From assembly GCA_045643025.1 (NCBI GenBank), contig JAZUJZ010000066.1, positions 1 through 36,725 on the forward strand: a DNA stretch of 36,725 nucleotides, in the 5' to 3' direction. The DNA comes from Alphaproteobacteria bacterium. GTDB taxonomy: Bacteria; Pseudomonadota; Alphaproteobacteria; CAAHEQ01; UBA3637. The notes beneath the pieces are model-generated. The model saw only the letters and a program-made list of their open reading frames with translations, had not been told where the DNA came from and searched no databases. The translations under genes were made by a program, and so were the position numbers. Of the stretch, positions 18,991 to 36,725 are shown piece after piece; position 1 is the stretch's first letter, and each line of letters opens with the position of its first letter.

Positions 18991-19251
18991 AATCACATCA
19001 TCCGGATGTCCCATATTAAGCACACGCATTAATTCTTCCTCAATCACATCTTTAGATTGATTTTTAATGGCCTCTACCTTTAATCGTAAATCTGCCACCT
19101 GCTGTTGTAAATTATCATTGGATTGAACGGCTTGAACATATTCCGTTTTAAGTTCGTGTAACCTTAAAATGCCCCGATGACCATAAATCCCATGATAAAC
19201 GAAATAGGAAGTAATGACGATGGATAAAAAGGGGATTAAAAAATGTTTCAT
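18970..19251 (-). CDS. ftsB: Septum formation initiator, FtsB/DivIC family
   Basis: 93 aa. N-terminal TM (FLIPFLSIVITSYFVYHGIYG), then a coiled coil and EEELMRVLNMGHPDDVILL, typical of FtsB/DivIC. Confidence 0.75.
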   Translation of the reverse strand: MKHFLIPFLSIVITSYFVYHGIYGHRGILRLHELKTEYVQAVQSNDNLQQQVADLRLKVEAIKNQSKDVIEEELMRVLNMGHPDDVILLDETT

Positions 19252-22925: not shown

Positions 22926-24047
22926 GTGTCCGATTATTATGAGATATTAGGTGTCAATAAATCCGCTTCGTTTGACGAAATCAAACGGGCTTTTCGCGTT
23001 AAAGCGATGGCTTGCCATCCGGATAGACATCCCGGAGATAAAGAAGCCGAAAAGAAATTTAAGGAATTAGGGGAGGCCTATGAAGTTCTCAAAGATTCGG
23101 ATAAAAGAGCCAGTTATGACCAACTGGGGCATGAAGCTTTTAAAGCCGGCATGGGTCGTCAAAGTGGTTTTGGTGGCGGTTTTGGGGGCTTTGATTTTTC
23201 CGGCACCGGCTTTGAAGACATCTTTTCCGAAATGTTCGGTATGGGGGGGGGACATTCCCATACCAAAAAACACTCAGTCGGTGAAGACATACGAATGGAT
23301 TTAGAAATTACCTTAGAAGAAGCATTTCAAGGAATTAAAAAGGACATACAGGTAGAACATTTAGAACCCTGTTCGGAATGCGACGGTAAAGGAGGAAGTG
23401 GCATCCAAACCTGCAGCACTTGTCAGGGAACAGGTCGCATTAGACAGCGTCAAGGATTTTTTGTAATGGAAACAGTTTGTCCGACTTGTCAAGGATCCGG
23501 AGAAACCATTAAAAAACCATGTTCACATTGCCGTGGAACGGGACGTATAAAACAAAAAAAGACTTTACAGGTCAATATCCCTGCAGGCGTAGATACAGGT
23601 GTCAGAATGCGCCTATCGGGTGAAGGAAACGCTGCTGTTCGGGGTGGAATAGCGGGGGACCTCTATGTATTTATTTCAATCAAAGAACACCCCTTATTCC
23701 AACGTCGAGGGGATGATTTATTCTTAACAATGCCCATTCCTTTAACAACGGCTGTTTTTGGGGGCGAAATTGATATTCCAACCCTCAACGGTAAAATGCA
23801 ACGCCATACAGTCAAACCAGGGTTGCAATCCGGGGAAGAAAAATGTTTTGCCCATCTTGGAATGCCTAACTTACAAAATAAAGTGCGGGGTGATCTTTAC
23901 GTTCGTTTTCAGGTTGAAACTCCCATCAATTTAACCGCAGAACAAAAAACATTATGGGCCAGTTTTAATGGACAAAAAAACCAAAATCCCCTGTGTGAGA
24001 AATTCAAAAAAATGACCCAATCTCTCTTTGGCTCAATCAATCAATGA
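22926..24047 (+). CDS. dnaJ: Co-chaperone DnaJ (Hsp40)
   Basis: GTG start. J-domain YYEILGV...HPD. G/F-rich linker. Four CxxCxGxG zinc-finger repeats ([32 protein letters not shown]). Confidence 0.96.
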
Positions 24048-24519
24048 TTTCATTCGGATCAATTCCCCACAGATTTTTCCGTAAAAACCATCCGTGATAT
24101 TTTTTGTCCCGATAATTCAGTTTTAAGTGGCAATACTCCCCTTTGGGACATTCTTCAATTTGTGCCACAACACCGGGCTGTAGAACAGCCATTATTTCAC
24201 TATCCAAACGGGGATGTTGAAGCAGGGAATCTTCTTCTCTGACCAAAGCATATCTTTTTTGGCTCAACATATTTTTATTCATCCAACCCGTTGTCCCATC
24301 TACTTCACGTACCTGCCGCCAAACCTCATAGGATTCCAGTATTTCCACAGGATAATTTTGTTCCTGATATACCCAATCAATCGGGAAACGTTCCCCCGGA
24401 CCTGTGCGCAAATTGACCTCATCATATTTCAGGGACATATATTCCTTGGCCTCAATCGGTAATCCAAATAAAATAATCAATAAGAAAACAAAATTATTCT
24501 TCACCGGATTCCCCTTCAC
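24037..24519 (-). CDS. Secreted tandem bacterial SH3 (SH3b/DUF1058-like) domain protein
   Basis: 160 aa. Signal peptide ([17 protein letters not shown]). Two SH3b-like units ([17 protein letters not shown]...[20 protein letters not shown] and [25 protein letters not shown]...[12 protein letters not shown]). The start overlaps the preceding gene by 26 nt. Confidence 0.65.
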
Positions 24520-25045
24520 TTTGAAAACGATGACGAATAGAATGGGCCTGACGTCTGGGAGATAAAGTCATAGCCGACTTGTCTTCCTCTCCCCCACCTG
24601 CATCTAAAACAACAGATGAAGAAGAGGTTTCCTCGTCAGAAATAGCCATATTTAACTCATTCCAACACACCTGAACAGCGGGAAAAATCAATAATTGGGC
24701 ACAAATCAATCCACGATGGACAATCACAGGATTATGCGATGTATTTTGGATTAAAATAAACAAAGCCCCCCGATCCGCCGGATGTAAAATCTGTGGAGCG
24801 CCCAAAACAATGACCCCTTGTTCTTTGGCTAAAGTAGGAACACTCACCACTTGACCACAATAGCCCTTTGGGATACCAATGGCAAACCCAACGGGAATAT
24901 AGGCCCGTTCCATCGCATTTAATCGTATAGGTGCAGAAATCGCCGCCTGTAAATTCAGGGCAATATGATGGGCAGAAGTATAACTGGGTAACGCTAATCC
25001 CGTCCCATCAGCAGTTCGTGCAATAAAAAGACGTGGTATTGTCAT
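24494..25045 (-). CDS. dUTPase-fold protein with degenerate catalytic motifs and an acidic/Ser-rich C-terminal tail
   Basis: Colinear with Dut over about 130 aa (LPSYTSAHHIALNL...IPVGFAIGIP...VLGAPQILHPADRGALFILIQN...HRGLICAQLLIFP), but motifs I, II, III and V are substituted or absent. Start set to ATG 25045 (MTIPRL), 10 nt after the virB11 stop, not the overlapping 25108. Confidence 0.6.
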   Translation of the reverse strand: MTIPRLFIARTADGTGLALPSYTSAHHIALNLQAAISAPIRLNAMERAYIPVGFAIGIPKGYCGQVVSVPTLAKEQGVIVLGAPQILHPADRGALFILIQNTSHNPVIVHRGLICAQLLIFPAVQVCWNELNMAISDEETSSSSVVLDAGGGEEDKSAMTLSPRRQAHSIRHRFQSEGESGEE

Positions 25046-25055
25046 CCTGTTCCCT

Positions 25056-26045
25056 CTATGTGATTTCCGTAATGGCCCGAATGTTTCCATCACGATTAAT
25101 TTGAACAACCCGCAATTTTTCCTTCATCTCTTTATACAACTTTTCTCGATCGGATGAAGGATAAGTATGCATAATACGACCAATAAAGGCCTTATAAGCC
25201 GCATCCGGATTTTCGGCATGAATCGTTGCAAAACAGTTATCGTGTCCTGATCCCATTAATTCCCAAATAGCCCCCGCATTAGAGGTTGAAATTTCTCCGC
25301 CTATAATCGCATCAGGAGTAAAACGCACCGCCAAATCAATCACGTTTTTATAGGTAAAAGTATTGGTTAATTCTGTTCGTGGCATAACAATATGAACCCG
25401 ATTTGGATGTTGCACAATTAATTCCCGGGTATCCTCAATCGTCAAAATACGTTTATGCTCATCCAATAATTTCAGCATATTGTTCAAAAAAGTTGTCTTT
25501 CCGGTGGCTGTCGCCCCGCTGACCAAAATATGATCCCCCCGTTGAATAGATAACAATAAACGTTCATAGGGATCATCCGGATCTTCAACATCCTTTAATT
25601 TATTGATTTGACGTAAACGTCCCCCTTTGACTAAGCCGAATTGTTCCATTTTGATATCCAAATCTTCACGATACACACGAATGGCCATTGCTATACCACC
25701 CGTCAAATCATCGTTATCATACATCACATTACGTCCGGCAATTCCCGAAAAACGATGTCCCCCGGGCAAAGTGGCAAAAACAACAGGCATTCCGGCTTGA
25801 GGATCAAAGGCCAAATCATACGTATTGGCAATAATATACATGATGTTATTCAAATATTCCCGTGTTAATTTCGGATCTTCATAATAATGCCATGGATAGG
25901 CGTGTTTTCCCCTCAAACGCAACCAAATACCACCGGGATTATCAACAGCTACTTCTTCTACATTATCTTGACTGTACCAATAGGATAAAGGACGTAAAGT
26001 CTGTTCCAAAACACGATATGTATCTGTAATTGAAAGATTTCCCAT
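25056..26045 (-). CDS. virB11: Type IV secretion ATPase VirB11
   Basis: 329 aa. Walker A VSGATATGKTT, Walker B/Asp box RILTIEDTRE, RFTPDAIIGGE, His box GHDNCFATIHA. AGGAGA Shine-Dalgarno. Lies downstream of virB10. Confidence 0.92.
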   Translation of the reverse strand: MGNLSITDTYRVLEQTLRPLSYWYSQDNVEEVAVDNPGGIWLRLRGKHAYPWHYYEDPKLTREYLNNIMYIIANTYDLAFDPQAGMPVVFATLPGGHRFSGIAGRNVMYDNDDLTGGIAMAIRVYREDLDIKMEQFGLVKGGRLRQINKLKDVEDPDDPYERLLLSIQRGDHILVSGATATGKTTFLNNMLKLLDEHKRILTIEDTRELIVQHPNRVHIVMPRTELTNTFTYKNVIDLAVRFTPDAIIGGEISTSNAGAIWELMGSGHDNCFATIHAENPDAAYKAFIGRIMHTYPSSDREKLYKEMKEKLRVVQINRDGNIRAITEIT

Positions 26046-26053
26046 ATTATCTC

Positions 26054-29000
26054 CTATAAAGGTTGTGTTTGTGTGTTTTGAACAGGTTGTACAACACGAT
26101 CATCTATATCTTCCGGCATATCCTCCGGACCATTATAAAGAGGTTCCGGTTCTGACTTTTTATTTTTATTTTTTCTGTTGTTCTCTTTGACTGTCGTCTT
26201 GACATCCTCTTTGGGTTGGGATTTTTTACGTAAATCTGCGGGTTCTACTGTCTTGGGTCTTTGGGCAGCCGTAGGACGTTCACCAAATTCATTGGCGACT
26301 TCTTTTTCATCATCTTCCACAGAACGCAACCACAAATCCTCACGGGCAAACACCACAAATTTCGTTCCGGCCGGCACATAAACAACCGGAGGAATCCCCT
26401 CAACTTCATCAATTAACTTCTGCATAATTTCATCACTTAAATCAATCCAGTTCTGACGTTTTTCCTGTCTGGCCGCCGCCTTTTCAGAGATTGTCCCCGT
26501 TGAGGCAGAAGAAGCCGCCACTTCACCATTACCCGTATTCAAATCAATAATCATATTCGTTGCCAAGGTATTTAAGAAGGGCATCCCATACTTATTCCAC
26601 AACTGTTTATCCAAATAGGCCGCAATTCCCCCACGTCCCATCACATCCCCAGAGGAAGACCCCTGTAAATTAAAGGCCACACCATCCGGACGAATCAAAC
26701 GGCTCCATTGAATATCAATCTTGGCCACACCATCCACACCGGCCCCACTGGAGAAACTGCCAATTAAACGAGAACCGGCCGGAATTAAAATATTTCTGCC
26801 CTCTTCTCCATACACATTGGATTCAACAATTCCCAAAGCCGGTGAATCCGAGTATCTGGAATCGATAGGACGAGCCAAAACCCCACGAATGGCTTTACCC
26901 TGTAAAATCACATTACTCATATCAACAGGCCAAGTGGAAATATTCGTTTTTTCAATACCCACTCTGGACCAATCTTGATCTTTTTTGGGCTTACTGCGTG
27001 CCTGTAATTCAGCCCCAGGAATCAATAAAGTTCCCTTTCCCAAACTTTCACGCATACTGGCCCGTTTTTGTCTGATAATATCATGTATGGCATCAATCTG
27101 TTCGGGATCAATCTTCATCGGTTTTGGTTCCGGTGGCCGCTCACGACCATTGACAGCTTCCGGAGATAAAGGTTTGCCGGATAAATCAAACAAACGTCCA
27201 TCTTTCCATGTTCCCACAATGTTATTATCCTCATCCAAAACCACACCATCCGGATCTACAACATAGGTTTGATTGCCCCAAACAATTGTCCGGCGTCCTG
27301 CTCCCCCAGCGGAATCAGCCAAACCACAATGCTTAAAACTCACACTAATCCCAATAAATTTACCCATAAAACTTCCATTCGGGGCAAAAATTTGTCCATC
27401 CGGTAATAAGCTGGCATATAATTCACCATCTGCCCCCAGCATTGTTCCATCGGCCTGAATTGAGGCAATTTTATCCCCGTCCAAACCAATTAAATCGCAT
27501 CCCTGTAAACATCCCAATCCTTGGGCATAAATCATGCTCGGACAAACTTGATTATCCAAAGTACGCACTTCACCATTTTGTAAATTGACATTAAACAAGA
27601 CATCCCCTTGGGCATTTTTCACTTCACCATTCAAACCCAATGTATAGGTCAAATGTCCCTTATCATCCAGAACTAATTCTTCCTCACGAGAAACAACCCG
27701 TCCCAACACATTTCCCAACGGATCAATCACTGTCCCTTTACCATCTCCCAGCACCGTACCAATGACTTTCTGATTCACATCCTTAACGGTTCCCAAAGAA
27801 GTACTGTACCCAATCATCGTTCCATCGGGCGCAAAAACAGGGGCGGCTTCAACCACATGCCCGATATCACGCCCATCAAAAGTTTCCACAGAACCATCAT
27901 TTTTGGCACACGCCATTTCTACGCCATTCACATCTACAACAGTTGAATCCGGTAAAGTGCGCCCTAAATACTCACCCCTAGGGGACATTACCGGTCCCGT
28001 CCGCACGGTGCGTCCGATTTCTTTTCCTTGGGCATCAACAACCCATTTATCGGGACGAATACGTCCCACAACAGACCCTTGGCCATTAATCACACGTCCA
28101 TCATAGGCCGTTTGTCCCACCACTTTACAATTATTGACAATTAAAGGTTCCGGCACCAAAGCCCCCAAATTCTTAAATTGATTATCCCCTTTAACTGCCC
28201 CGTTATTTGCAATAGGTCCAACAACATCTCCTTTATAGGATACCACTTCACCGGTATGAGAGAGTGACCCCAACACTTCTCCTTCATACCCCACAGCCGT
28301 CATAAAGGGCAAAACCACCCCCGATAAAGGTTGTTCTTTTCCCAAAATCAATCCCGTATCCAAAATACGATAAAGTTTTTGATTGGCACCATCTAACACA
28401 TCCCCCGAAATATTGGTCCGTCCCAAAACCTTTTTGTTATAACCATAGGGTAATCCCTGGGCCACAGTGTGTCCCCCATAAGGCATCGTATTCAAAATCC
28501 CCTTTTGGGCAACCTGTGCCATCGCACCATCGGGTAAAATTTGTCCGACAAAGGAACCATCCGTCTTAATTACAGACCCATCTGCTGTAATCACACCAAC
28601 CGGTTTGGCATCAATATCCACAACAGCCCCTGTCGGCATCACGTTTCCTAACCATTGAGAATCCGGTGATAAAGCCGATGCAAAGGCCAATTTATGCCCC
28701 ACCTGTTTACCTTGTACAAAAACACCGCTTGTTCCGCCGGTAGTTCCAGCGACAGATCCTTTCTTATCAATAATCACAGCGGGTTGATAAACACCCCCGA
28801 CAACTTCACCGTTAGAGGAATAAATAACGGTATTTCCGGCCACATTTCCCGTTAATTTACGATCACCAAACAGTTGGCCGTTAATTTTGGGAATTCCAAG
28901 AGCCCCCAACGTTGTGGCGGTCGCAATACCCATTGGAACAATTCCCCCTGTTATTTGGGCTGTATTATTTGCCACAAAAGTATTACTCATCGCCTGACCA

Positions 29001-32000
29001 TCTATTTTAGATTGTGCAAAAGACATCAATTGTCCCATATCGGACAACATTCCCAAAGTTTGACCATTATTCATATGTGTGGCAAATAACCCCAGTTCCA
29101 GAAAACGTCCCAAAGTACCATTTTTCAAGTGAGCAAAAGGATAAGTATCACTCCGTCCCACCACGACACCGGAAGCATCCTGTAATTCGCCGGCTTCATT
29201 AATCAATCCTGCCACTTTACCCATATCCGTAAAACCAACCATACCAATGGGTAAATAACGTCCAACCATCACACCGTTTTCATCAAAGACATGACCATCC
29301 AATCCAACCTGGCCAACAACCTTTGTTCCGTTTTCTATTTTTCCGTCATAACGTGTCCAGCCCATGACCTGACCATTATTATCTACAGCAATACCCGGAT
29401 CCAATAAACGTCCCATCAATATTCCTTGATCATCGTAGAGGAAAATTGAATCTCCCAAACGTGTCATTTTCTCACCTGTTTCGGAAAGAAATTCTCCACG
29501 ACTGGAAACAGTTCCCAAAAATTGTCCCACCGTATCCACCGCAATTTGATGTGAAACCACTCGTCCCAAGAATTCACGCCCAGACCCGACGGCCATACCG
29601 GAAGGAAGAATATTTGCAAAAGGTCGACCATCCGGATTATTCACACCCCCTACAAAATTTGCCCACCCAATTAAACGACTTTGTTCATCCATAAACACGT
29701 TCAAATCTACCAAATGCCCTTTAACAGAGTTATCTCCACCCAGGATTGCTCCACCGGCTGCGACCACTCCGACCAAATTCCCCTTGATATCATTGACTTG
29801 ACCTTGATAGGCAACAGACCCTTCTTTACCAACCTGTTGGGGCATCACAGATCCCAAAGAACCTTCAATAGAAACAGGAACTGCAATAGATGGGAACACC
29901 ATTCCCAATACCTTATTTTCTGTGGAAACAGCCAAGCCATTGGCCAAAACACGACCAATTTTCTGGGCTTTTTCATTCACAACTTCCGTATTATTTTTGG
30001 CCAATCCAACAAACTGACCGGCTGTATTGAGAACAGCCCCCGAACGCACCATGGCTCCCAAAATTTTACCTTCTGCATTTCTGACCAACCCATTGGCATA
30101 AACTTTTCCCTCAACAATTTGATTTTGATTAATCAAAGTGCCATCAGATTGCAAGGTTCCCAAAATCATACCATTCAAATCGACAAAAGTTGTCCCTGTT
30201 TCAATCAAAACACCCACAACTTCCGTTCCAGATTCATTGATGACGCTTTTACCGGGCAAAACACGTCCCAAAATTTCACCCGAAGTTTTCGTGGTCAAAC
30301 CACTCATTTGATCATAGGAACCAATCACATCCCCTTTATCCGTAAAAATAGGACCGCTGATTGGGACATAGCCCACCATTTGATGATTGGCACCGATCAC
30401 ATATCCATTGGAATACACATCTCCAATCCAATTACTGCTCGCATCAAAAACTTTTCCACCGACAAATGACCATCCCGTAGAACGCCCGTTTTCATCAATC
30501 ACCACCCCCCGATTTGACAGAACGGTTTGTATTTTCTTTGATGAATTGACACATCCTAAAACAGCCCCTTTAGAATCATAAATTTGTCCATCCAAAGCCA
30601 CACGACCAATTAATTTATTTTGATCGTCCATCATAATACCCATGGGGGTCACTTGACCAATAACCTCACCATTTGTGTTCATGACCTCTTTTGTCCGAGA
30701 GATACAACCCACTTGTAATGCCTCGGGTGATACCACAACCCCTTTCAAAGAGATTAATCCCAACAACTGACAATCCGGTGCAATGGCCGTTCCCGTAGGA
30801 GCAACCATCCCCAAATACTTTTTCTTATCATCCAAAACTTGAGCATCCGGATATACCCGTCCGACAACCTTAAACTCATCATCCATAACCTGTCCGTTGG
30901 GATAAACGGCCCCAACCTGACCACAGGCATCCCGAATCACCCGACCCACAGGCATAATGGCCCCCACAAATTTATCCTTTGCAAACACAGAACCATCCGG
31001 ATTAATACATCCAATTAACTCACCTTTGGCATTAACGGCTTTACCGGCGGAATTCACAAACCCGACCGGTTGTGCTTTACTATCAATCACCAACCCTTGA
31101 CGCACCACCGAGCCAATTTCATTGGATTGAGCATTCACAACAGTTTTATCCAGCAACACATGACCTACACTTTGGTTAAAGCCATCTTTGACCTGACCAT
31201 TCATGGAAATCATCCCATAGGATTTACAAGAGGAACCCACCACAACACCCCGAGGCACAACACCCCCCACTAATCCACCGTTTTTCGATAACGCCAACCC
31301 CATCGGTCGCATATAGGCCACCACTTTATTTTGGGAATCAATGACTTTTCCATCCGGACGAATTGCCCCCAAGATTTTACCTTGAAAATCCATCACCAAT
31401 CCCCACGGGCTTAAATATGCAATGTCTTTACCATCTAAATCCACAACCCGTCCATCAATCAAAGGACGACCAACCACCTTCTTTTTGCCATCCACCATAT
31501 AGACAGTCTTATCATTCAGATTCACTTCCATTTTGGCAATCACATCCCCTTTTTCTGTCATGGCAGGAACATGAGGAATGGCTTTACCAATAATCTCAAA
31601 TTTTTCATTCACAATGGTATCATCGCCCAATAGGTGACCAATTTTACTGCCGTTAAAATCCACCACATCACGATTATCCAACACAGAACCCAATAATTCA
31701 TTCTTTAAGGATAAAGGAACTGTTTCAGGTTGAACAACCGCAATAATCTTTTTTGTTTTAGGATCAATCACGACATTATCAACAGGTTCAATTTCTTGCC
31801 CATCAATAATAACTTTTCCTTTGGGGTTTACCTGAACCGGATCACCATTGATTTTAACGGCCTCAGACGGAATAGCAGGCGCCGATTTTTCATCACATTT
31901 ACAACAGGTACAATCCTTTGAATCCGAAGAATTTGCCGATAATTCAATGGCGGTATGCTCTTCACGAAAAACACGAGGATTATCTTCCATCCAACGCAAA

Positions 32001-32491
32001 TCCAAGGTATTATGTATGGAACGCACTTTTTCGGGCATCCAAGAAACAATCAAGGTGCAACTATGTCCCATTTCCAATAAATCTTTTTCCATACACTCAC
32101 CGGATAATTGAAAGTTATCCTCTTTTTCAATTTCCAATTTCTTACCCAATAATTTGACGGGGGCATTCTGTGCCCGTAAAGTAATGGGAAATTCATCCAC
32201 TTGTCCCACAACAACCTTATCCATAACCACTTTATTGGGCGTCACCAGTAATTGGGCAGATCCATCGGCAAAAACAGGGGTCGGATCCGGTTCAGGATCA
32301 GGAGCATCCAAACTTCCCCGAATAATTCCCCCTTCATTTCCAATGGGAGATGTTTCAACAACCTCTGTTTCATCCTGTAATTGACAAAGGGCCAATAAAA
32401 ACAACAATAACAGCAAAATCCCGATAATCAATAAAATTCGATTACCACGTTTTTGTGTTTTTTGTGAAAGACTTTCTCTATTGGCTGCCAT
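26054..32491 (-). CDS. virB10: Giant type IV secretion protein VirB10 (2145 aa): N-terminal TM and Pro-rich region, Ig-like module, about 1,560-aa 17-residue repeat array, TrbI/VirB10 C-terminal domain, charged tail
   Basis: Uninterrupted 6,435-nt ORF. TM helix ILLIIGILLLLLFLLALC. Pro-rich DAPDPEPDPTPVF. C-terminal domain at aa ~1840-2055 (nt 26327-26974): ILIPAGSRLIGSFSSG, DIQWSRLIRPDGVAF, GIPPVVYVPAGTKFVVF. Sits between virB9 and virB11. Confidence 0.9.
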   Translation of the reverse strand: MAANRESLSQKTQKRGNRILLIIGILLLLLFLLALCQLQDETEVVETSPIGNEGGIIRGSLDAPDPEPDPTPVFADGSAQLLVTPNKVVMDKVVVGQVDEFPITLRAQNAPVKLLGKKLEIEKEDNFQLSGECMEKDLLEMGHSCTLIVSWMPEKVRSIHNTLDLRWMEDNPRVFREEHTAIELSANSSDSKDCTCCKCDEKSAPAIPSEAVKINGDPVQVNPKGKVIIDGQEIEPVDNVVIDPKTKKIIAVVQPETVPLSLKNELLGSVLDNRDVVDFNGSKIGHLLGDDTIVNEKFEIIGKAIPHVPAMTEKGDVIAKMEVNLNDKTVYMVDGKKKVVGRPLIDGRVVDLDGKDIAYLSPWGLVMDFQGKILGAIRPDGKVIDSQNKVVAYMRPMGLALSKNGGLVGGVVPRGVVVGSSCKSYGMISMNGQVKDGFNQSVGHVLLDKTVVNAQSNEIGSVVRQGLVIDSKAQPVGFVNSAGKAVNAKGELIGCINPDGSVFAKDKFVGAIMPVGRVIRDACGQVGAVYPNGQVMDDEFKVVGRVYPDAQVLDDKKKYLGMVAPTGTAIAPDCQLLGLISLKGVVVSPEALQVGCISRTKEVMNTNGEVIGQVTPMGIMMDDQNKLIGRVALDGQIYDSKGAVLGCVNSSKKIQTVLSNRGVVIDENGRSTGWSFVGGKVFDASSNWIGDVYSNGYVIGANHQMVGYVPISGPIFTDKGDVIGSYDQMSGLTTKTSGEILGRVLPGKSVINESGTEVVGVLIETGTTFVDLNGMILGTLQSDGTLINQNQIVEGKVYANGLVRNAEGKILGAMVRSGAVLNTAGQFVGLAKNNTEVVNEKAQKIGRVLANGLAVSTENKVLGMVFPSIAVPVSIEGSLGSVMPQQVGKEGSVAYQGQVNDIKGNLVGVVAAGGAILGGDNSVKGHLVDLNVFMDEQSRLIGWANFVGGVNNPDGRPFANILPSGMAVGSGREFLGRVVSHQIAVDTVGQFLGTVSSRGEFLSETGEKMTRLGDSIFLYDDQGILMGRLLDPGIAVDNNGQVMGWTRYDGKIENGTKVVGQVGLDGHVFDENGVMVGRYLPIGMVGFTDMGKVAGLINEAGELQDASGVVVGRSDTYPFAHLKNGTLGRFLELGLFATHMNNGQTLGMLSDMGQLMSFAQSKIDGQAMSNTFVANNTAQITGGIVPMGIATATTLGALGIPKINGQLFGDRKLTGNVAGNTVIYSSNGEVVGGVYQPAVIIDKKGSVAGTTGGTSGVFVQGKQVGHKLAFASALSPDSQWLGNVMPTGAVVDIDAKPVGVITADGSVIKTDGSFVGQILPDGAMAQVAQKGILNTMPYGGHTVAQGLPYGYNKKVLGRTNISGDVLDGANQKLYRILDTGLILGKEQPLSGVVLPFMTAVGYEGEVLGSLSHTGEVVSYKGDVVGPIANNGAVKGDNQFKNLGALVPEPLIVNNCKVVGQTAYDGRVINGQGSVVGRIRPDKWVVDAQGKEIGRTVRTGPVMSPRGEYLGRTLPDSTVVDVNGVEMACAKNDGSVETFDGRDIGHVVEAAPVFAPDGTMIGYSTSLGTVKDVNQKVIGTVLGDGKGTVIDPLGNVLGRVVSREEELVLDDKGHLTYTLGLNGEVKNAQGDVLFNVNLQNGEVRTLDNQVCPSMIYAQGLGCLQGCDLIGLDGDKIASIQADGTMLGADGELYASLLPDGQIFAPNGSFMGKFIGISVSFKHCGLADSAGGAGRRTIVWGNQTYVVDPDGVVLDEDNNIVGTWKDGRLFDLSGKPLSPEAVNGRERPPEPKPMKIDPEQIDAIHDIIRQKRASMRESLGKGTLLIPGAELQARSKPKKDQDWSRVGIEKTNISTWPVDMSNVILQGKAIRGVLARPIDSRYSDSPALGIVESNVYGEEGRNILIPAGSRLIGSFSSGAGVDGVAKIDIQWSRLIRPDGVAFNLQGSSSGDVMGRGGIAAYLDKQLWNKYGMPFLNTLATNMIIDLNTGNGEVAASSASTGTISEKAAARQEKRQNWIDLSDEIMQKLIDEVEGIPPVVYVPAGTKFVVFAREDLWLRSVEDDEKEVANEFGERPTAAQRPKTVEPADLRKKSQPKEDVKTTVKENNRKNKNKKSEPEPLYNGPEDMPEDIDDRVVQPVQNTQTQPL
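27167..31858 (-). repeat. Protein-level tandem array inside virB10: about 90 degenerate copies of a 17-residue (51-nt) unit, roughly p-x-G-x-V-h-D-x-x-G-x-h-h-G-x-V-x
   Basis: Sixteen consecutive units stay in register in aa 378-649 (nt 30545-31360). Examples: PVGRVIRDACGQVGAVY, PNGQVMDDEFKVVGRVY, PDAQVLDDKKKYLGMVA, PTGTAIAPDCQLLGLIS, PMGIMMDDQNKLIGRVA, LDGQIYDSKGAVLGCVN. The same G..V.D..G..hG.V pattern recurs from aa ~212 to ~1775. I saw no long exact DNA repeats. Boundaries are approximate. Confidence 0.8.
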
Positions 32492-32502
32492 TCATATTTC
32501 CT

Positions 32503-34059
32503 TTATTGAATTTTCACCACGGAGCATGCAAATCCACGTTTACCGATTTTACGACAAATAGATTCGGCCGTTTGAACATCCTTCATCATACCTGCACGCA
32601 AACGGAACAACTCTAACACCTCACCATCGGCCGTTGCATCAACGGAATAATAAGGTTCATAACCGGATAAAATATCTTTATTTTTGGAAAAGACTTTATT
32701 CCACAGGTTTTCCAATTCTGACATTTTCGTGCTGGTTCCAAACTCCACAGCCACACTTTCCATTCCCAGAATCGGCACAATCTCATTCTTACCGGCGGCT
32801 TGCACCACATCTTGATTGGCTTTCATAATATTATCCGGAATAGATTTAATGGAAGCAAAGGTTGTATTATTGGCACATCGACCGGCCCCTGTTTCATCAT
32901 AACAATACGGTTGAGCACTATCGGCCGAGGAAGCATAATTTGTCTGTGTCCAAATAGCCGGCATATCTCCCATAAATTGTTGTGAAACAGATGCCATTCC
33001 ACCCACTCCTTGAGGAGCATAATCTGTATATTGCAAACCACTTTCAGGACTGCGACGTAACTTAATACAAATCACTTTCCGACCATTTCTTAAAACTAAA
33101 TCACCAATTCCTTCTACAACGATTAATCGGCTGTTCGGACCACGTGTCCGATACCCAACGGGAACTTCAGAATCTTGTTCCAACATAGAAACAACAGGAC
33201 GTTGTGTCATTGTCAGTGCTTTGGGCCCCAAATCAATATAGGTAAAGATATTATCACGCCAAACATTATCGGGCGCAATATCCACGTCTTCCGGATTCGG
33301 AATAAACATATCCAAATCAAACCGCACACTTTCCGGATCCATAGGAACTGTTTTTAACCAATCTTGAGGAGCTCCACCGGCAACCCCACCGGTTCCATTG
33401 GCACCGGAGAGCATATTGTTGTTCCCTGTTCCATTTTTTAACGGAGCCGCCGCCATAGATGTCACCCCGTTAGCTTCTCCCATTTGACCACCCGAACTGG
33501 CCGGTGTCCACCGAGGTCCAACCAATACATCTACCACAGATTGGGTTATTTTATCGGTATTAAATCCTTCACTGCGTAAATAAAATACATAACGATTTCC
33601 GCTATGACCAAAAATAATCATATTACTGTCTACCCCGATATAATTCGGATCCGCATATAACAATAAAGAATTGGAAGACACAATTTCTCCCCCAAAAGAT
33701 TCCGGTGAACCGATATGCACTTTTTCAATTAACTCCCATGCAGGTAAATTAATTAAAGTCATCATTCCTTCACGTAAACGAACCGGTAACACGGTATCCG
33801 GGGTCCAATTATATTTGGTATAGCCGGGCTTTGTCTGTCCTTCGCCCAAATGTTCCATAGGGTTATTCCATGCCTTTTGTTGCATGCCCAATGAATGGAT
33901 ATAACTGGTATCCACCTGATCAAATTCTCCGGCAGATTCATTAATTGCATCAACAACCATTGCTGTTTCTGTATCGGCAGGTGTTTGAACTTGCGCACCG
34001 ACAGGGAAAACAATCCCCGCCCCCAATAAAAAACAAATTATTTTTGTGTATAAATGCAT
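32503..34059 (-). CDS. virB9: Type IV secretion protein VirB9 with C-terminal SPOR domain
   Basis: Signal peptide MHLYTKIICFLLGAGIVFPVGAQV. VirB9/CagX-like N-domain (YTKYNWTPDTVLPVRLREGMMTLINLPAWELIEKVHIGS...NRYVFYLRS). C-domain (PDNVWRDNIFTYIDLG...PVVSML...LIVVEGIGDLVLRNGRKVICIKL). The last 83 aa fit SPOR. Start set to ATG 34059 because GGAGGA (reverse complement of 34065-34070) lies 5 nt upstream. Confidence 0.85.
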   Translation of the reverse strand: MHLYTKIICFLLGAGIVFPVGAQVQTPADTETAMVVDAINESAGEFDQVDTSYIHSLGMQQKAWNNPMEHLGEGQTKPGYTKYNWTPDTVLPVRLREGMMTLINLPAWELIEKVHIGSPESFGGEIVSSNSLLLYADPNYIGVDSNMIIFGHSGNRYVFYLRSEGFNTDKITQSVVDVLVGPRWTPASSGGQMGEANGVTSMAAAPLKNGTGNNNMLSGANGTGGVAGGAPQDWLKTVPMDPESVRFDLDMFIPNPEDVDIAPDNVWRDNIFTYIDLGPKALTMTQRPVVSMLEQDSEVPVGYRTRGPNSRLIVVEGIGDLVLRNGRKVICIKLRRSPESGLQYTDYAPQGVGGMASVSQQFMGDMPAIWTQTNYASSADSAQPYCYDETGAGRCANNTTFASIKSIPDNIMKANQDVVQAAGKNEIVPILGMESVAVEFGTSTKMSELENLWNKVFSKNKDILSGYEPYYSVDATADGEVLELFRLRAGMMKDVQTAESICRKIGKRGFACSVVKIQ

Positions 34060-34118: not shown

Positions 34119-34799
34119 TTATTCGTTTGTTTTCGCTAAAACCTCCCGATCATAGTTTGTGACCGTAAAACCCAAAGGATTTTTTAACCTTTGTTCCCAA
34201 TTCATCCCTTTACGAACCGTTTGAAAATTCACCTCTAATTTGGCCTGCAAATTACGTATATCTTTTTCAGAAGAACGTTGACGTTTGGTTGTCAGTAAAA
34301 ATTTAACAATCCATTGATTTTTTGCATCATCTTTCAACGCAGATTGAATCATCACTTCACGCGTCATTCCTTCATCCTCGGCTAACCTCATCGCATCATT
34401 CATTTCTTGTGCGACAAAGGCCTCATAATAAGACCGTTGTGTCATTAAATCAATAATTCCACCTACCCCCCAACGCCTTTTTAACTCTTCCAAATCAGAT
34501 CCAATCGTATAACGAGCCAAAATATATTGGCGGACATAGGATTCCTCTAACTGCTTACGATTAAAATTTTCCAATTTCGGACGCACAATATCAATCACCT
34601 GTTGATCTTTATCCTGAATATTGATTAAAAAGGGCTGAATCCGTGTTAAAGGTTGTAACGATCCCAAGGCCACCAATAACAAAATATTAGCCAACAAAGC
34701 CAAAATACCCACCACACAAAACGCCCGACTCATCCACAGATAACGTTCGGTTTTGAGGGCTTCATAGGAAGATTCTTGATCTCTTTGTTCTGTTGGCAT
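34119..34799 (-). CDS. virB8: Type IV secretion protein VirB8
   Basis: 226 aa, bitopic (TM AFCVVGILALLANILLLVALG). Periplasmic NTF2-like domain with ESYVRQYILARY and the hallmark NPLGFTVTNY near the C-terminus. Confidence 0.9.
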   Translation of the reverse strand: MPTEQRDQESSYEALKTERYLWMSRAFCVVGILALLANILLLVALGSLQPLTRIQPFLINIQDKDQQVIDIVRPKLENFNRKQLEESYVRQYILARYTIGSDLEELKRRWGVGGIIDLMTQRSYYEAFVAQEMNDAMRLAEDEGMTREVMIQSALKDDAKNQWIVKFLLTTKRQRSSEKDIRNLQAKLEVNFQTVRKGMNWEQRLKNPLGFTVTNYDREVLAKTNE

Positions 34800-34812: not shown

Positions 34813-34998
34813 CTACGTTGTCATTAAAAAATCGGGTAATTTTTCTGTTTTTTTCAATTCCAGACAGGCACATGGTGATTTTTTGAGTTCTGAATATTCA
34901 CGTCCGATGCCGACGGGGGAATTTTCATAAATAGAACCACATGCCCCAAGAATAGCCAAAACACCGATAACAACACCTAAATACAACAGTTTTTTCAT
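34813..34998 (-). CDS. Small lipoprotein, VirB7-like by position
   Basis: Start at ATG 34998 (GGAGG 5 nt upstream). MKKLLYLGVVIGVLAILGAC has a lipobox (L-G-A-C). The mature peptide is about 42 aa. It lies between two virB8 paralogues, where rvh-type clusters place rvhB7. Confidence 0.6.
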   Translation of the reverse strand: MKKLLYLGVVIGVLAILGACGSIYENSPVGIGREYSELKKSPCACLELKKTEKLPDFLMTT

Positions 34999-35058: not shown

Positions 35059-35703
35059 TTATTCTTTTCTATCTGTTTCCGAAAAAGTCCGAATCAAAGT
35101 CCCATAGGGATTGGAAAAATCCGTTCTGAATAATTTTCTTTTTAAGTTATGCGTAATTTTAATGGCGGCTGTCTTTTTTTGAATTCCCGCCACTTCCCCC
35201 GTCCGAGAGGTCGTATAAATATCAAAATCAATATAATATAAATTGGCATCTCGGGCATCTTGTTTCACCTGTAAAATATCCACCGTTACCACAGAACTGG
35301 GCAAATTTTTTAACCTTTTTTCCAACCCATTTGCAAAATCCGAATAAATCGCCGGTGTGGAAAGACGGGCCAAATAACTCCTGCCCCCCCAACGACGTGT
35401 CATTTCTGCAGAATCCGGAATGCTGCTGTATCGTGTTTCCACGTAATAACGCAAAAGCATTTCATCAATAAATCCCCGATTTAACCGAGAACTTTTCAGG
35501 GAATCTTCGGATTCAAAGGGCACCACCTCACTTTGTTGTTCTGATTTCATTGCCTGCTCGGTATAAAATTGAGCCAACACCCGTAAATCACGACTGTGTT
35601 GTACAAGAGTAAAAGTCAAAAAAAATGTCAGCGACAAAACCACAACCGATCCGATAAGGGAAATCTTAAAATAGAAAAATGCCTTATCGGATGTCATAGA
35701 CAA
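35059..35703 (-). CDS. Divergent VirB8-like paralogue
   Basis: 214 aa, same bitopic architecture (TM ISLIGSVVVLSLTFFLTFTLV). MLLRYYVETRY (cf YVRQYILARY) and a degenerate C-terminal FSNPYGTLIRTF (cf NPLGFTVTNY). Confidence 0.7.
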   Translation of the reverse strand: MSMTSDKAFFYFKISLIGSVVVLSLTFFLTFTLVQHSRDLRVLAQFYTEQAMKSEQQSEVVPFESEDSLKSSRLNRGFIDEMLLRYYVETRYSSIPDSAEMTRRWGGRSYLARLSTPAIYSDFANGLEKRLKNLPSSVVTVDILQVKQDARDANLYYIDFDIYTTSRTGEVAGIQKKTAAIKITHNLKRKLFRTDFSNPYGTLIRTFSETDRKE

Positions 35704-35712
35704 ATCCCTTCA

Positions 35713-36725
35713 TTAAAAAGGACAACTTTTGAATTTAGGTAACATATCCCCTTGTTGTTTCAAGGTGTCCCGTGTTTTTTGTTGTGCTTCGGCGATCAAC
35801 TTATTACTGGATTGACGTTCATGCATCAGTTGATCTACCTCCATCGCATTGGTTTCCGTTAAATGTACCAATCCGTTGGTATCTTTTTCCAAAGCAGCCA
35901 ATACCAACTTTTGTTGGGCCACAGGGGACATCTGACTCATCGGGATAATACCGTTATCCATTTTGCCCAAGGCTTGCTGGGCCTCCGGTGACAAACGAGA
36001 TTGGCGCACTTTTTGGGCCGCATTACGCTTAGCCAACAACTCAGGGCGTTGCACATCCTGTTGTTCCAACTTAGCTACATAGGCATAGGCCTGTTTCATA
36101 TACTCGGATTTTTTTGTTTTCAGTAATTTACTCAATTGACCAAATTGTCCGGATGAAGCCAAATCAATTCCCGTGGTGTCCACACCGGCTGCCTTCACCT
36201 TATCCAAATAATCTTGTGTCATTTGTTGCTGGGTTTCATCAATGGAAGCCGCCCCTTTTTGAACAGAATCCAAAGCCAAACGCATATCATATTCTTTTTC
36301 CAAATCTCCCTTAACCATTATATTGGAAAAACTGGCCGGTGTATTCACATTCCCATTTTCAAAGAAAGTAGCAAATTCCCCACCTGATTGGGCCAAAATC
36401 TGCTGATTTTTCTTATCTTTCCATAAAGCCGGCATTTCGGGATAAACCTTATTTGTCTGACCATCTGCAAAGGCAATATTATAGACATCAGGTAACGCCT
36501 CCGGTGCTTTTGGTGGATTAGACTTAAAATCTAATTTTTTTACTTTTTTCAACTGGGCTAAATAGGCCTGATGTGCCTGTAAAACCTGACTATATTTTTT
36601 GGGATTATGACGCACCTCATCCTCTACAGCGGGACGTCCTTTCAAAGCAACACCGAATTGACGATTCATATTTTCATAAAACTGATCCCACTGCTGATCA
36701 TAAATCGTGACTTGATCTTTCCATA
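35713..36725 (-). CDS. Hypothetical Gln/Lys-rich, probably helical protein; first gene of the T4SS cluster seen here; 5' end probably outside the window
   Basis: The ORF track gives 318 aa from ATG 36669. My translation shows the frame stays open upstream to the window edge (...WKDQVTIYDQQWDQFYENMNRQFG...). No recognised domain. Its stop lies 9 nt before the VirB8-like paralogue. Confidence 0.55.
   Translation of the reverse strand, partial: WKDQVTIYDQQWDQFYENMNRQFGVALKGRPAVEDEVRHNPKKYSQVLQAHQAYLAQLKKVKKLDFKSNPPKAPEALPDVYNIAFADGQTNKVYPEMPALWKDKKNQQILAQSGGEFATFFENGNVNTPASFSNIMVKGDLEKEYDMRLALDSVQKGAASIDETQQQMTQDYLDKVKAAGVDTTGIDLASSGQFGQLSKLLKTKKSEYMKQAYAYVAKLEQQDVQRPELLAKRNAAQKVRQSRLSPEAQQALGKMDNGIIPMSQMSPVAQQKLVLAALEKDTNGLVHLTETNAMEVDQLMHERQSSNKLIAEAQQKTRDTLKQQGDMLPKFKSCPF

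What the first reader, a model, noticed from the sequence alone, without database searches (positions are those of the whole stretch)
32506..32754. SPOR (septal peptidoglycan-binding) domain fused to the C-terminus of VirB9
Seen: after both VirB9 domains and a ~95-aa linker, the last 83 residues read VAVEFGTSTKMSELENLWNKVFSKNKDILSGYEPYYSVDATADGEVLELFRLRAGMMKDVQTAESICRKIGKRGFACSVVKIQ. This fits the SPOR pattern as I remember it from FtsN, DamX, DedD and RlpA: x-V-Q/E-h-G-x-h, then helix-A, then an RLR/RV-x-hG strand, then helix with A..hC..L, then G..C.VV. Established: SPOR domains bind denuded glycan strands, which are enriched at division septa. Canonical VirB9 proteins are about 270-300 aa and I know of no peptidoglycan-binding module in them. 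Inference: the fusion would tether the outer-membrane core complex to the sacculus. It could bias assembly toward septa or new poles, or substitute for a VirB1-type peptidoglycan-handling function. The protein also has a Gly/Asn-rich insert (GGQMGEANG...GNNNMLSGANGTGGVAGG) between its N- and C-domains.
Basis: partly seen in the sequence, partly recalled or inferred. Interest (0 to 1): 0.72.

Follow-up and report, generated by a model that had tools for sequence, protein, structure and literature searches.

The report
VirB9 with a SPOR cell-wall-binding tail
A core outer-membrane subunit (VirB9) of a chromosomal type IV secretion system in uncultured gut Alphaproteobacteria carries a real SPOR-type cell-wall-binding domain on a long flexible tether, a fusion we found in no paper, but its key sugar-contacting glutamine is replaced by a glutamate, so what it binds is still open.

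Summary
The gene lies on the minus strand (CDS 32503..34059, 518 aa from an ATG with a GGAGG ribosome-binding site; the 532-aa ORF is the TTG-extended frame). It encodes signal peptide, VirB9 N- and C-domains (Pfam CagX E 9.5e-15), a variable tether (about 100 aa here) and an 84-aa C-terminal domain (32506..32757).

That domain is a SPOR domain. Its own Pfam score is sub-threshold (15.2 bits against 21), but orthologous tails score 27-34 bits over almost the whole profile. AlphaFold gives a confident beta-alpha-beta-beta-alpha-beta fold (pLDDT 89), and its best PDB matches are the CwlC and RlpA SPOR domains (TM 0.7-0.8). A profile of the tails recovers bona fide SPOR proteins from 1.84 billion sequences.

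The fusion is fixed: 79 of 80 related loci have it (the other is cut by its contig end), at least 415 matching stretches in the GTDB species-genome collection encode a relative, and virB8-virB9-giant virB10-virB11 synteny is conserved.

Caveat: the signature Gln (FtsN Q251, RlpA Q270) is an invariant Glu, the FtsN Q251E substitution that weakens denuded-glycan binding. The Arg patch and a Cys pair are kept.

Most likely it is a multivalent peptidoglycan tether for the outer-membrane core complex. Septal or polar targeting is untested. New variant of a known kind.

The parts
32503..34059 (-). virB9-SPOR coding sequence (518 aa plus stop). The 532-aa ORF from TTG 34101 is the mechanical maximum.
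   Evidence: ORF list. GGAGG 6 nt upstream of the ATG at 34059. The database copy P0001 is 518 aa and 100% identical.
33991..34059 (-). Signal peptide, aa 1 to about 23 (MHLYTKIICFLLGAGIVFPVGAQ).
   Evidence: Hydrophobic segment at aa 2-20. Predicted helix 2-17. The cleavage site is inferred.
33061..33819 (-). VirB9/CagX region (aa 81-333 of the 518-aa protein). It holds the N-terminal beta-sandwich (about aa 89-164) and the C-terminal domain (about aa 240-333).
   Evidence: Pfam PF03524 E 9.5e-15, 55.4 bits against a cut-off of 34.2. Foldseek finds the TrwF/VirB9 N-terminal domain, 7o3t_B, E 5.4e-6. Column identity is 0.8-0.97 among 44 homologues.
33373..33492 (-). Gly/Asn-rich insert between the two VirB9 domains (aa 190-229).
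   Evidence: Read from the sequence. The segment is 41-59 aa long in homologues and poorly conserved, with pLDDT below 35.
32758..33060 (-). Flexible tether (aa 334-434) between the VirB9 C-terminal domain and the SPOR domain.
   Evidence: pLDDT is below 50 for all but a few residues of it. Column identity is 0.34-0.57 for most of it. The part between conserved Y347 and E434 is 72-164 aa long in 44 homologues.
32506..32757 (-). SPOR domain (aa 435-518), topology beta1-alpha1-beta2-beta3-alpha2-beta4.
   Evidence: AF2 on the tail alone gives pLDDT 89.1 and pTM 0.77. Foldseek best matches are CwlC SPOR 1x60 (E 2.4e-4) and RlpA SPOR 6i05/6i09 (TM 0.70/0.78-0.79, rmsd 2.1-2.2). Pfam SPOR scores 27-34 bits in orthologues. 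The reciprocal profile search recovers SPOR proteins.
32743..32745 (-). Glu439, in strand beta1, at the position of the signature Gln of SPOR domains (Pfam profile position 8; RlpA Q270, FtsN Q251).
   Evidence: Glu is invariant in 79/79 locus tails and is found in 17 of 19 VirB9-linked representatives with a residue there. The role of the Gln is described in PMC6895207, and the effect of Q251E.
32596..32604 (-). Arg486-Leu487-Arg488 in strand beta3 (motif L-F-R-L-R-x-G). This is the counterpart of RlpA L307/R309/R311 and FtsN R285, the basic glycan-binding patch.
   Evidence: F485, R486, L487, R488 and G490 are invariant in 44 homologues. R488 is invariant in all locus tails, and R486 becomes His in the most distant ones. 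The RlpA residues are taken from PMC6895207. The alignment to them is by motif and is inferred.
32524..32556 (-). Cys502 (helix alpha2) and Cys512 (start of beta4), a probable periplasmic disulfide.
   Evidence: Both are invariant in the homologues. The pair is present in 222 of 223 related SPOR domains. The disulfide itself is inferred, and no distance was measured.
34119..34799 (-). virB8, immediately upstream.
   Evidence: Pfam VirB8 E 4.6e-21. The synteny holds in nearly all 80 loci.
26054..32491 (-). Giant virB10 (2145 aa), immediately downstream. It has an N-terminal membrane segment, beta-flower repeats and a C-terminal TrbI/VirB10 domain.
   Evidence: Pfam TrbI E 1.6e-29 at aa 1861-2055, Bflower_2 E 4.7e-62 in 10 stretches. 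NCBIfam VirB10/ComB10. It follows virB9 in every locus that extends far enough.
25056..26045 (-). virB11 ATPase.
   Evidence: Pfam T2SSE. NCBIfam TIGR02788 VirB11 E 1e-40. 66-97% identical across the loci.
34813..34998 (-). Small lipoprotein (61 aa, lipobox LGAC) between a VirB8 paralogue and virB8. It is a VirB7-position candidate.
   Evidence: ORF found. Conserved in 76 of 80 loci, with an ELK[KR]SPCAC motif. No Pfam family matches it. The VirB7 role is inferred from size, lipobox and position only.

Best explanation
The last 84 residues of this VirB9 are a genuine, divergent SPOR domain: an RNP-like fold whose open beta-sheet face binds peptidoglycan glycan strands. It hangs from the VirB9 C-terminal domain on a tether that is about 100 aa here and whose variable part ranges from 72 to 164 aa among homologues.

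VirB9 builds the outer-membrane core complex in about 14 copies. An assembled machine would therefore carry a ring of about 14 SPOR domains able to reach back to the sacculus. These would clamp the core complex to the cell wall by avidity.

Two glycan-binding features are retained: the Leu-x-Arg-x-Arg strand and a basic alpha2-beta4 loop. The signature Gln is an invariant Glu. Each copy probably binds canonical denuded glycan weakly, or prefers a modified glycan. Firm attachment would then need the assembled multimer.

If the domain still prefers amidase-processed (septal) peptidoglycan, the system would be installed at division sites and inherited at new poles.

Shown here: domain identity, fold, fusion architecture, conservation and operon context. 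Inferred: peptidoglycan binding, avidity, disulfide, localisation.
For: Domain identity:
- Pfam SPOR is hit by all 43 orthologous tails, best E 2.8e-8.
- Tested tails score 27-34 bits against a cut-off of 21 and cover profile positions 4-76 of 76.
- AF2 on the tail gives pLDDT 89, pTM 0.77 and a beta-alpha-beta-beta-alpha-beta fold. The same fold appears in the full-length model.
- Foldseek puts the CwlC, RlpA and DedD SPOR structures on top. CwlC and RlpA reach TM 0.70-0.79, against TM 0.5 or less for the non-SPOR ferredoxin-like folds listed.
- The tail profile finds canonical SPOR proteins (Pfam SPOR E 1e-12 to 1e-29) at E 1e-14 to 1e-10 among 1.84 billion proteins.

The fusion is real and under selection:
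- 79 of 80 related loci keep the tail, down to 37% tail identity. The one exception is cut by its contig end.
- The tail is better conserved than the tether.

Binding face:
- L-F-R-L-R-x-G matches RlpA L307/R309/R311.

Context:
- The order virB8 - virB9 - virB10 - virB11 holds in all loci.
- The window is chromosomal, carrying dnaK, dnaJ, nusA, infB and metG.

Precedents:
- DotK, a peptidoglycan-binding core-complex subunit, is needed for polar Dot/Icm placement (PMC10266036).
- The PilQ AMIN domains recruit the type IVa pilus machine to midcell (PMC5285504).
Against: - The one highly conserved glycan-contacting side chain of SPOR domains (Gln) is an invariant Glu here. The same change in FtsN (Q251E) reduces denuded-glycan binding and septal localisation.
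- The window protein's own Pfam score is below threshold.
- No binding or localisation data exist for any member, and all members come from uncultured bacteria.
- The full-length model is poor (pLDDT 47), so the geometry relative to the core complex is unknown.
- The copy number of 14 is borrowed from other T4SSs.
Confidence: 0.62

Rival explanations
1. The tail is a SPOR-derived domain that has lost canonical glycan binding. It now serves as a protein-protein module, for example an extra periplasmic ring, a docking site for the giant VirB10 or the small lipoprotein, or a contact to a peptidoglycan synthase or hydrolase.
For: - An invariant Glu replaces the signature Gln, and Q251E weakens glycan binding in FtsN.
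- The system has unusual partners that could need extra contacts: a 2145-aa VirB10, a conserved small lipoprotein, and several secreted proteins of unknown function.
- The FtsN preprint notes possible SPOR interactions that are independent of glycan binding.
Against: - The Arg-x-Arg strand on the glycan-binding face is conserved, which fits retained binding of an acidic glycan.
- A long tether of variable length (variable part 72-164 aa) suits reaching a diffuse target such as the sacculus better than a fixed protein interface.
- Glu at this position also recurs in about 25 independent non-VirB9 SPOR domains of the same subfamily. It is therefore a tolerated natural variant and not a sign of decay.
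Confidence: 0.22
2. The tail binds peptidoglycan but has nothing to do with septa. It is a general wall anchor, or it recognises glycan ends or denuded strands produced locally when the wall is opened for T4SS insertion.
For: The fold and basic patch are the same as in the best explanation. No lytic transglycosylase domain was found among the T4SS genes examined in the window, nor in the flanking ORFs of locus L004 that were scanned, so how the wall is opened is unknown. Weak monovalent affinity together with avidity does not need a septal signal.
Against: All characterised SPOR domains are reported to bind denuded glycans and to target proteins to the division site (abstract of bioRxiv 10.1101/2022.07.01.498525; PMC6895207). 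Nothing in the sequence separates this reading from the septal one.
Confidence: 0.12
3. The resemblance to SPOR is a chance match of a generic ferredoxin-like fold, or the fusion is an assembly or annotation artefact.
For: The window protein's own Pfam hit is weak, E 0.028 over half the profile. phmmer and a profile search against PDB sequences gave nothing significant.
Against: - Orthologues pass the Pfam threshold over the full length.
- The profile search is reciprocal.
- SPOR structures clearly outrank other ferredoxin-like folds.
- The fusion is in one reading frame in 79 independent assemblies.
Confidence: 0.03

Closest known systems
SPOR domains of FtsN, DamX, DedD, RlpA (Proteobacteria) and CwlC (Bacillus), Pfam PF05036
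   Same: - About 80 aa with the beta-alpha-beta-beta-alpha-beta RNP-like fold.
- The V-x-h-G strand beta1, and the y-R-h-R-h-G strand beta3 carrying the basic patch (RlpA L307/R309/R311).
- C-terminal position behind a long disordered linker, as in FtsN, DamX and DedD.
- A Cys at the start of beta4, at the place of FtsN C312.
   Different: - The signature Gln (FtsN Q251, RlpA Q270, DamX Q351) is an invariant Glu.
- The Cys partner lies in helix alpha2, not in beta1.
- Helix alpha1 is longer and carries an invariant Trp.
- Strand beta2 carries a GYEPYYSVD motif.
- The carrier is a secretion-machine subunit, not a division protein or a wall hydrolase.
Canonical VirB9 proteins (A. tumefaciens VirB9, pKM101 TraO, R388 TrwF, H. 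pylori CagX)
   Same: - The Pfam CagX domain.
- The N-terminal domain model superposes on TrwF (Foldseek E 5.4e-6).
- The gene sits between virB8 and virB10.
- The protein has a signal peptide.
   Different: - About twice the usual length.
- A Gly/Asn-rich insert between the two domains.
- A conserved N-terminal extension.
- A roughly 100-aa tether plus a SPOR domain at the C-terminus.
- It falls far below NCBIfam's VirB9 equivalog cut-off (38.9 against 217.7 bits).
- No plasmid in PLSDB carries the tail.
DotK of the Legionella Dot/Icm (type IVB) core complex
   Same: It is a peptidoglycan-binding module that belongs to a T4SS outer-membrane core complex. DotK binds sacculi and is needed for polar placement of the machine (PMC10266036).
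   Different: DotK is a separate lipoprotein with an OmpA-like domain, which is thought to bind the peptide stem. Here the module is a SPOR fold, which binds the glycan backbone, and it is fused to VirB9 itself in a VirB-type system.
AMIN domains of the type IVa pilus secretin PilQ
   Same: A wall-binding domain built into the outer-membrane channel subunit. In P. aeruginosa it recruits the machine to future division sites so that it is pre-installed at new poles (PMC5285504).
   Different: A different fold (AMIN), at the N-terminus, on a different machine (a secretin).
Rickettsiales vir homologue (rvh) T4SS
   Same: An alphaproteobacterial, chromosomal, vertically inherited VirB-type system with a duplicated VirB8 (PMC2653234). 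Here a VirB8 paralogue precedes virB8.
   Different: The upstream ORF shows no VirB9 duplicate. virD4, virB4 and virB6 are absent from the sequence examined. rvh is not known to have a giant VirB10 or a SPOR tail (own knowledge, not tested).

Membership tests
SPOR domain (Pfam PF05036) | The window protein's own sequence reaches the Pfam gathering score. | tested here: not met
   15.2-15.4 bits against a cut-off of 21, E 0.024-0.028, profile positions 34/35-76 only.
SPOR domain (Pfam PF05036) | Orthologues that align column for column reach the gathering score over the full domain. | tested here: met
   Eight orthologous tails score 27.1-34.4 bits, four of them over profile positions 4/6/7-76 of 76. 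All 43 tails match at E <= 0.1.
SPOR domain (Pfam PF05036) | [quoted passage not shown] | tested here: met
   AF2 gives pLDDT 89.1 with elements E5-13, H16-29, E39-47, E51-62, H65-77, E83-87. Foldseek finds 1x60 at E 2.4e-4 and 6i05/6i09 at TM 0.70/0.78-0.79. The non-SPOR folds listed score TM 0.5 or less.
SPOR domain (Pfam PF05036) | A reciprocal profile search recovers recognised SPOR proteins. | tested here: met
   The tail profile gives 409 hits at E <= 1e-3. Seven of the ten representatives checked by Pfam lack a VirB9 domain, and all seven carry SPOR at E 1e-12 to 1e-29.
SPOR domain (Pfam PF05036) | The conserved Gln in beta1 that hydrogen-bonds NAM/NAG (RlpA Q270, FtsN Q251, DamX Q351). 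| tested here: not met
   Glu439 is at profile position 8 (register). It is invariant in 79/79 loci. Related non-VirB9 SPOR domains have Q 125 times and E about 25 times.
SPOR domain (Pfam PF05036) | A basic patch on the beta-sheet face (RlpA R309/R311, FtsN R285). | tested here: met
   R486 and R488 are invariant in 44 homologues, and L-F-R-L-R-x-G aligns with RlpA L307-x-R309-x-R311. This rests on sequence alignment, not on a measured surface.
SPOR domain (Pfam PF05036) | Binds denuded peptidoglycan glycans and localises to the septum. | not testable with these tools
   This needs sacculus pull-down, ITC, or a fluorescent fusion.
VirB9 / CagX / TrbG (Pfam PF03524) | Pfam CagX above the gathering score. 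| tested here: met
   55.4 bits against 34.2, E 9.5e-15, profile positions 4-196 of 198.
VirB9 / CagX / TrbG (Pfam PF03524) | NCBIfam VirB9 equivalog (TIGR02781) cut-off. | tested here: not met
   38.9 bits against 217.7. It is a divergent family member and not an equivalog of the Agrobacterium-type protein.
VirB9 / CagX / TrbG (Pfam PF03524) | Encoded between virB8 and virB10, with virB11 following. | tested here: met
   The order holds in every related locus that extends far enough.
VirB9 / CagX / TrbG (Pfam PF03524) | The N-terminal beta-sandwich resembles the solved VirB9 N-terminal domain. | tested here: inconclusive
   Foldseek finds 7o3t_B and 8rt6 (TrwF) at E 5e-6 to 3e-5, TM(target) 0.59-0.62. 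That part of the model has pLDDT of only 53-64.
OmpA-like or AMIN peptidoglycan-binding modules (DotK and PilQ type) | A Pfam match to OmpA or AMIN in the tail. | tested here: not met
   Only SPOR is reported for the tail at E <= 1. The analogy is functional only.

The most novel reading that the evidence does not exclude
The invariant Gln-to-Glu change is adaptive. On this reading the VirB9 SPOR domain reads a peptidoglycan state other than plain denuded glycan, for example de-N-acetylated or otherwise edited strands. Alternatively, it binds so weakly as a monomer that only the assembled ring of about 14 copies locks on. It would then work as an assembly checkpoint and place a chromosomal T4SS at division sites or new poles across a whole clade of gut Alphaproteobacteria. 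That would be the first case of a VirB-type core complex positioning itself through a wall-reading domain built into VirB9.
Probability: 0.2. Interest if true: 0.72.

Novelty: new variant of a known kind. Interest (0 to 1): 0.5.

Why it matters
How VirB-type secretion machines are fixed in the cell wall, and how they end up at particular places on the cell, is poorly understood. Known wall-binding helpers such as DotK and the PilQ AMIN domains belong to other machines or are separate subunits.

Here the wall-binding module is written into the core subunit itself and kept across hundreds of species. That gives a simple, testable handle:
- Swap or delete the tail.
- Mutate Glu439, Arg486 or Arg488.
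- Watch binding and localisation.

The natural Glu variant of the SPOR signature residue also offers a way to ask how SPOR specificity and affinity are tuned.

The hosts are uncultured gut and rumen Alphaproteobacteria whose biology is almost unknown. Their conserved chromosomal T4SS, with a 2145-aa VirB10, is probably central to how they interact with other cells.

Tried and rejected
- phmmer of the last 115 aa against PDB sequences gave only noise (Stu2 and an immune modulator, E about 0.8).
- A profile of 43 tails against PDB sequences gave only the CwlC SPOR domain at E 0.98. This is suggestive but not significant, so I moved to fold comparison.
- The full-length AF2 model was poor (pLDDT 47). 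It could not be used to place the tail relative to the VirB9 domains.
- I tested whether the upstream 318-aa ORF is a second VirB9, as in Rickettsiales. BLASTP found no similarity, so I rejected the idea. The 214-aa ORF, in contrast, is a VirB8 paralogue (E 1e-6).
- I tested whether the small lipoprotein belongs to a known VirB7 family. It has no Pfam match and remains a positional candidate only.
- I tested whether the upstream ORFs in locus L004 are VirB6-like. They have no Pfam or NCBIfam hit, carry signal peptides and lack multiple membrane segments, so I rejected this.
- The tail has no match in 72,556 plasmids.
- Literature searches found nothing: VirB9 with 'SPOR domain', 0 papers; RF32 with type IV secretion, 0 papers; 'SPOR domain' with secretion system and core complex, none of the 12 papers listed contained 'SPOR domain'. 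A 2025 T4SS review, searched for 'peptidoglycan' and 'VirB9', showed no wall-binding module on VirB9 in the 12 of 13 matching passages displayed.
- The cluster look-up for source names and accessions returned none.
- I looked for covariation between Glu at position 9 and Arg at positions 56 and 58 in related SPOR domains. There was no clear pattern.
Full report
**What is at the coordinates**

The finding's coordinates are right, but the gene is on the minus strand. The plus strand of the same bases is full of stop codons. The 532-aa ORF starts at a TTG. The ATG 14 codons in (34059) has a GGAGG six bases upstream. The only identical database protein (P0001) is 518 aa. The 518-aa product also starts with a signal-peptide-like hydrophobic segment. 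I therefore use CDS 32503..34059 and its numbering below.

**Anatomy of the protein**

- Pfam CagX (VirB9) covers aa 81-333 (E 9.5e-15, 55.4 bits against a cut-off of 34.2).
- In a full-length AlphaFold model the N-terminal beta-sandwich superposes on TrwF/VirB9 of R388 (Foldseek E 5.4e-6). That part of the model has only moderate confidence.
- After the C-terminal VirB9 domain comes a stretch (aa 334-434) that is poorly conserved, with column identity mostly 0.34-0.57. Its variable part is 72-164 aa long among 44 homologues, and it is predicted disordered.
- The last 84 residues (435-518; 32506..32757) are well conserved again.

**Is the tail a SPOR domain?**

On its own sequence the evidence is weak. 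Pfam SPOR scores 15.2 bits (cut-off 21), E 0.028, over the second half of the profile only. Sequence searches against the PDB were not significant. Four independent lines settle the question.

1. All 43 diverse orthologous tails (51-82% identical to this one, aligned without gaps) hit SPOR and essentially nothing else (one of the 43 also gave a marginal DUF7489 hit at E 0.099), best E 2.8e-8. Eight tested individually score 27-34 bits, four of them over profile positions 4-76 of 76.
2. AlphaFold on the tail alone gives pLDDT 89.1 and pTM 0.77, with the order beta-alpha-beta-beta-alpha-beta. The same fold appears in the full-length run.
3. Foldseek against the PDB ranks the CwlC SPOR domain first (E 2.4e-4, TM 0.70/0.77). 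The RlpA SPOR crystal structures follow at TM 0.70/0.78-0.79 with rmsd 2.1-2.2 A. The non-SPOR ferredoxin-like proteins listed stay at TM 0.5 or less.
4. A profile of the tails was searched against 1.84 billion representative proteins. After the VirB9-linked tails, it finds proteins that Pfam calls SPOR at E 1e-12 to 1e-29. These include multi-SPOR proteins and SPOR plus ankyrin or TPR.

The tail belongs to a recognisable SPOR subfamily. Its marks are a Trp in helix 1 (191 of 205 related domains with a residue there) and a Cys pair, one in helix 2 and one at the start of strand 4 (222 of 223).

**Is the fusion real and how common is it?**

Nearly all of the 80 kept loci come from uncultured Alphaproteobacteria of human, ruminant, rabbit or horse gut. 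Of those 80 loci, 79 carry the tail in frame at the end of virB9, down to 37% tail identity. The one exception is cut by its contig end. The gene order virB8 - virB9 - a 5.5-7.5 kb virB10 - virB11 holds in every locus that extends far enough.

The window is plainly chromosomal. It carries pyrD, metG, rpoZ, spoT, rimP-nusA-infB, ispH, typA and dnaK-dnaJ. None of 72,556 plasmids carries the tail. This is therefore an old, vertically inherited feature of a clade-wide chromosomal T4SS, and neither a one-off nor a mobile-element curiosity. The sources name these proteins only 'TrbG/VirB9 family'. 25 of the 120 listed homologues already carry a precomputed PF05036+PF03524 label. I found no paper that mentions the combination.

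The Pfam matches that include strand 1 put tail residue n at profile position n-1. Glu439 therefore falls on profile position 8. Alcorlo et al. single out that position as the only highly conserved side chain in SPOR domains. In RlpA it is Q270, whose amide hydrogen-bonds the lactyl group of NAM and the N-acetyl of NAG. It corresponds to FtsN Q251 and DamX Q351 (PMC6895207).

In this family the position is Glu in 79 of 79 loci. Among 50%-identity representatives with a residue there, 17 of 19 VirB9-linked tails have Glu, one has Gln (P0150) and one has Asp (P0226). Related non-VirB9 SPOR domains have Gln 125 times and Glu about 25 times. In E. coli FtsN, Q251E is the mutation used to reduce denuded-glycan binding and septal localisation (bioRxiv 10.1101/2024.05.13.594014).

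Against that, the beta3 motif L-F-R-L-R-x-G reproduces RlpA's L307, R309 and R311, the hydrophobic contact and two of the three arginines of the basic patch. R488 is invariant and R486 is Arg or His. The alpha2-beta4 loop is also strongly basic (CRKxGRRGF). The binding face is therefore kept in part, with one key contact changed in a fixed way.

**Most likely mechanism**

VirB9 forms the outer ring of the outer-membrane core complex in about 14 copies (review PMC12857230). Its C-terminal domain sits under the outer membrane. From my own estimate, a disordered tether of about 100 residues is long enough to reach the peptidoglycan layer a few nanometres below. FtsN, DamX and DedD carry their SPOR domains on comparable linkers.

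I therefore read the tail as a wall tether. About 14 copies per machine would give strong attachment by avidity even if each Glu-variant domain binds weakly. Weak monovalent binding would also keep unassembled subunits from being trapped. The invariant Cys pair in a periplasmic domain probably forms a disulfide. FtsN has a disulfide that also involves the strand-4 Cys. I could not measure the distance in the model.

Whether the domain still prefers amidase-processed, septal peptidoglycan, and so pre-installs the machine at future poles, is open. Two precedents make this reasonable. DotK, an OmpA-like core-complex lipoprotein, binds sacculi and is required for polar Dot/Icm placement (PMC10266036). 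The AMIN domains of PilQ recruit the type IVa pilus machine to midcell (PMC5285504). It is still true that no lytic transglycosylase domain was found among the T4SS genes examined in the window, nor in the flanking ORFs of locus L004 that were scanned.

**Rivals**

- The Glu may mark loss of glycan binding and a new protein-protein role (confidence about 0.2).
- The domain may bind the wall without any septal preference (about 0.1).
- A chance resemblance or an assembly artefact is excluded by the evidence above.

**Verdict**

The architecture is a new variant of two known things: VirB9 and SPOR. It is undescribed in the literature I could search and is fixed across a large uncultured clade. 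The functional reading (tethering, septal bias) is plausible but untested, and it must take account of the Gln-to-Glu change.

Interest is moderate. The principle of a wall-binding module on a secretion machine is already known from DotK, PilQ and others. The specific fusion and the natural signature-residue variant do give clean experiments.

Noticed in passing
window 26054-32491 (-): A giant VirB10 of 2145 aa. It has an N-terminal membrane segment and about 1800 aa of beta-flower repeats (Pfam Bflower_2 E 4.7e-62 in 10 stretches, plus Bflower and DUF3659). A normal TrbI/VirB10 domain follows at aa 1861-2055. A virB10 of 5.5-7.5 kb follows virB9 in every related locus that extends far enough. 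This is arguably stranger than the SPOR tail.
   Followed up: partly
window 34813-34998 (-): A small lipoprotein (61 aa, lipobox LGAC, motif EPVGIG...ELK[KR]SPCAC) lies between a VirB8 paralogue and virB8. It is conserved in 76 of 80 loci and has no Pfam family. It is a candidate VirB7 by position and size only.
   Followed up: partly
window 35059-35703 (-): This 214-aa ORF has no Pfam or NCBIfam hit but is a divergent VirB8 paralogue (BLASTP E 1e-6, 22% identity over 138 aa). A duplicated VirB8 recalls the Rickettsiales rvh system.
   Followed up: partly
window 35713-36725 (-); L004 242-8323: The 318-aa ORF at the window's end matches the C-terminal part of a 518-aa ORF in locus L004, so it is probably cut by the window end. 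In L004 six consecutive ORFs (973, 304, 297, 281, 316 and 518 aa) precede the virB8 genes. They have N-terminal signal-like sequences, no Pfam family above threshold and no multiple membrane segments. They may be system-specific periplasmic or surface components, or substrates.
   Followed up: partly
window 24037-25108 (-): A dUTPase/dCTP-deaminase-like gene and a small bacterial SH3 (SH3_4/SH3_3) protein follow virB11. They keep that position in the closer relatives. Some bacterial SH3 domains bind cell wall (own knowledge). Any link to the T4SS is unknown.
   Followed up: no
representatives P0150 and P0226: Two distant VirB9-SPOR representatives differ at the signature position. P0150 (493 aa) keeps Gln (AVQLGS) and P0226 (463 aa) has Asp. 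They may bracket the Gln-to-Glu switch.
   Followed up: partly
representatives P0151-P0270: The nearest non-VirB9 relatives form a SPOR subfamily with an invariant Cys pair and a helix-1 Trp. They often have two or three SPOR copies per protein, and some are combined with ankyrin or TPR repeats. Where Glu replaces Gln in these proteins, it is mostly in the first of two copies.
   Followed up: partly
L037 and L052: Two records that carry this alphaproteobacterial T4SS locus are titled 'Holdemanella biformis' and 'uncultured Lactobacillales'. These are probably binning or labelling errors in the source assemblies.
   Followed up: no
window 19248-20813 (-): A PAS-GGDEF diguanylate cyclase lies next to dnaK-dnaJ, a few kb from the T4SS genes. 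No link to the T4SS was examined.
   Followed up: no
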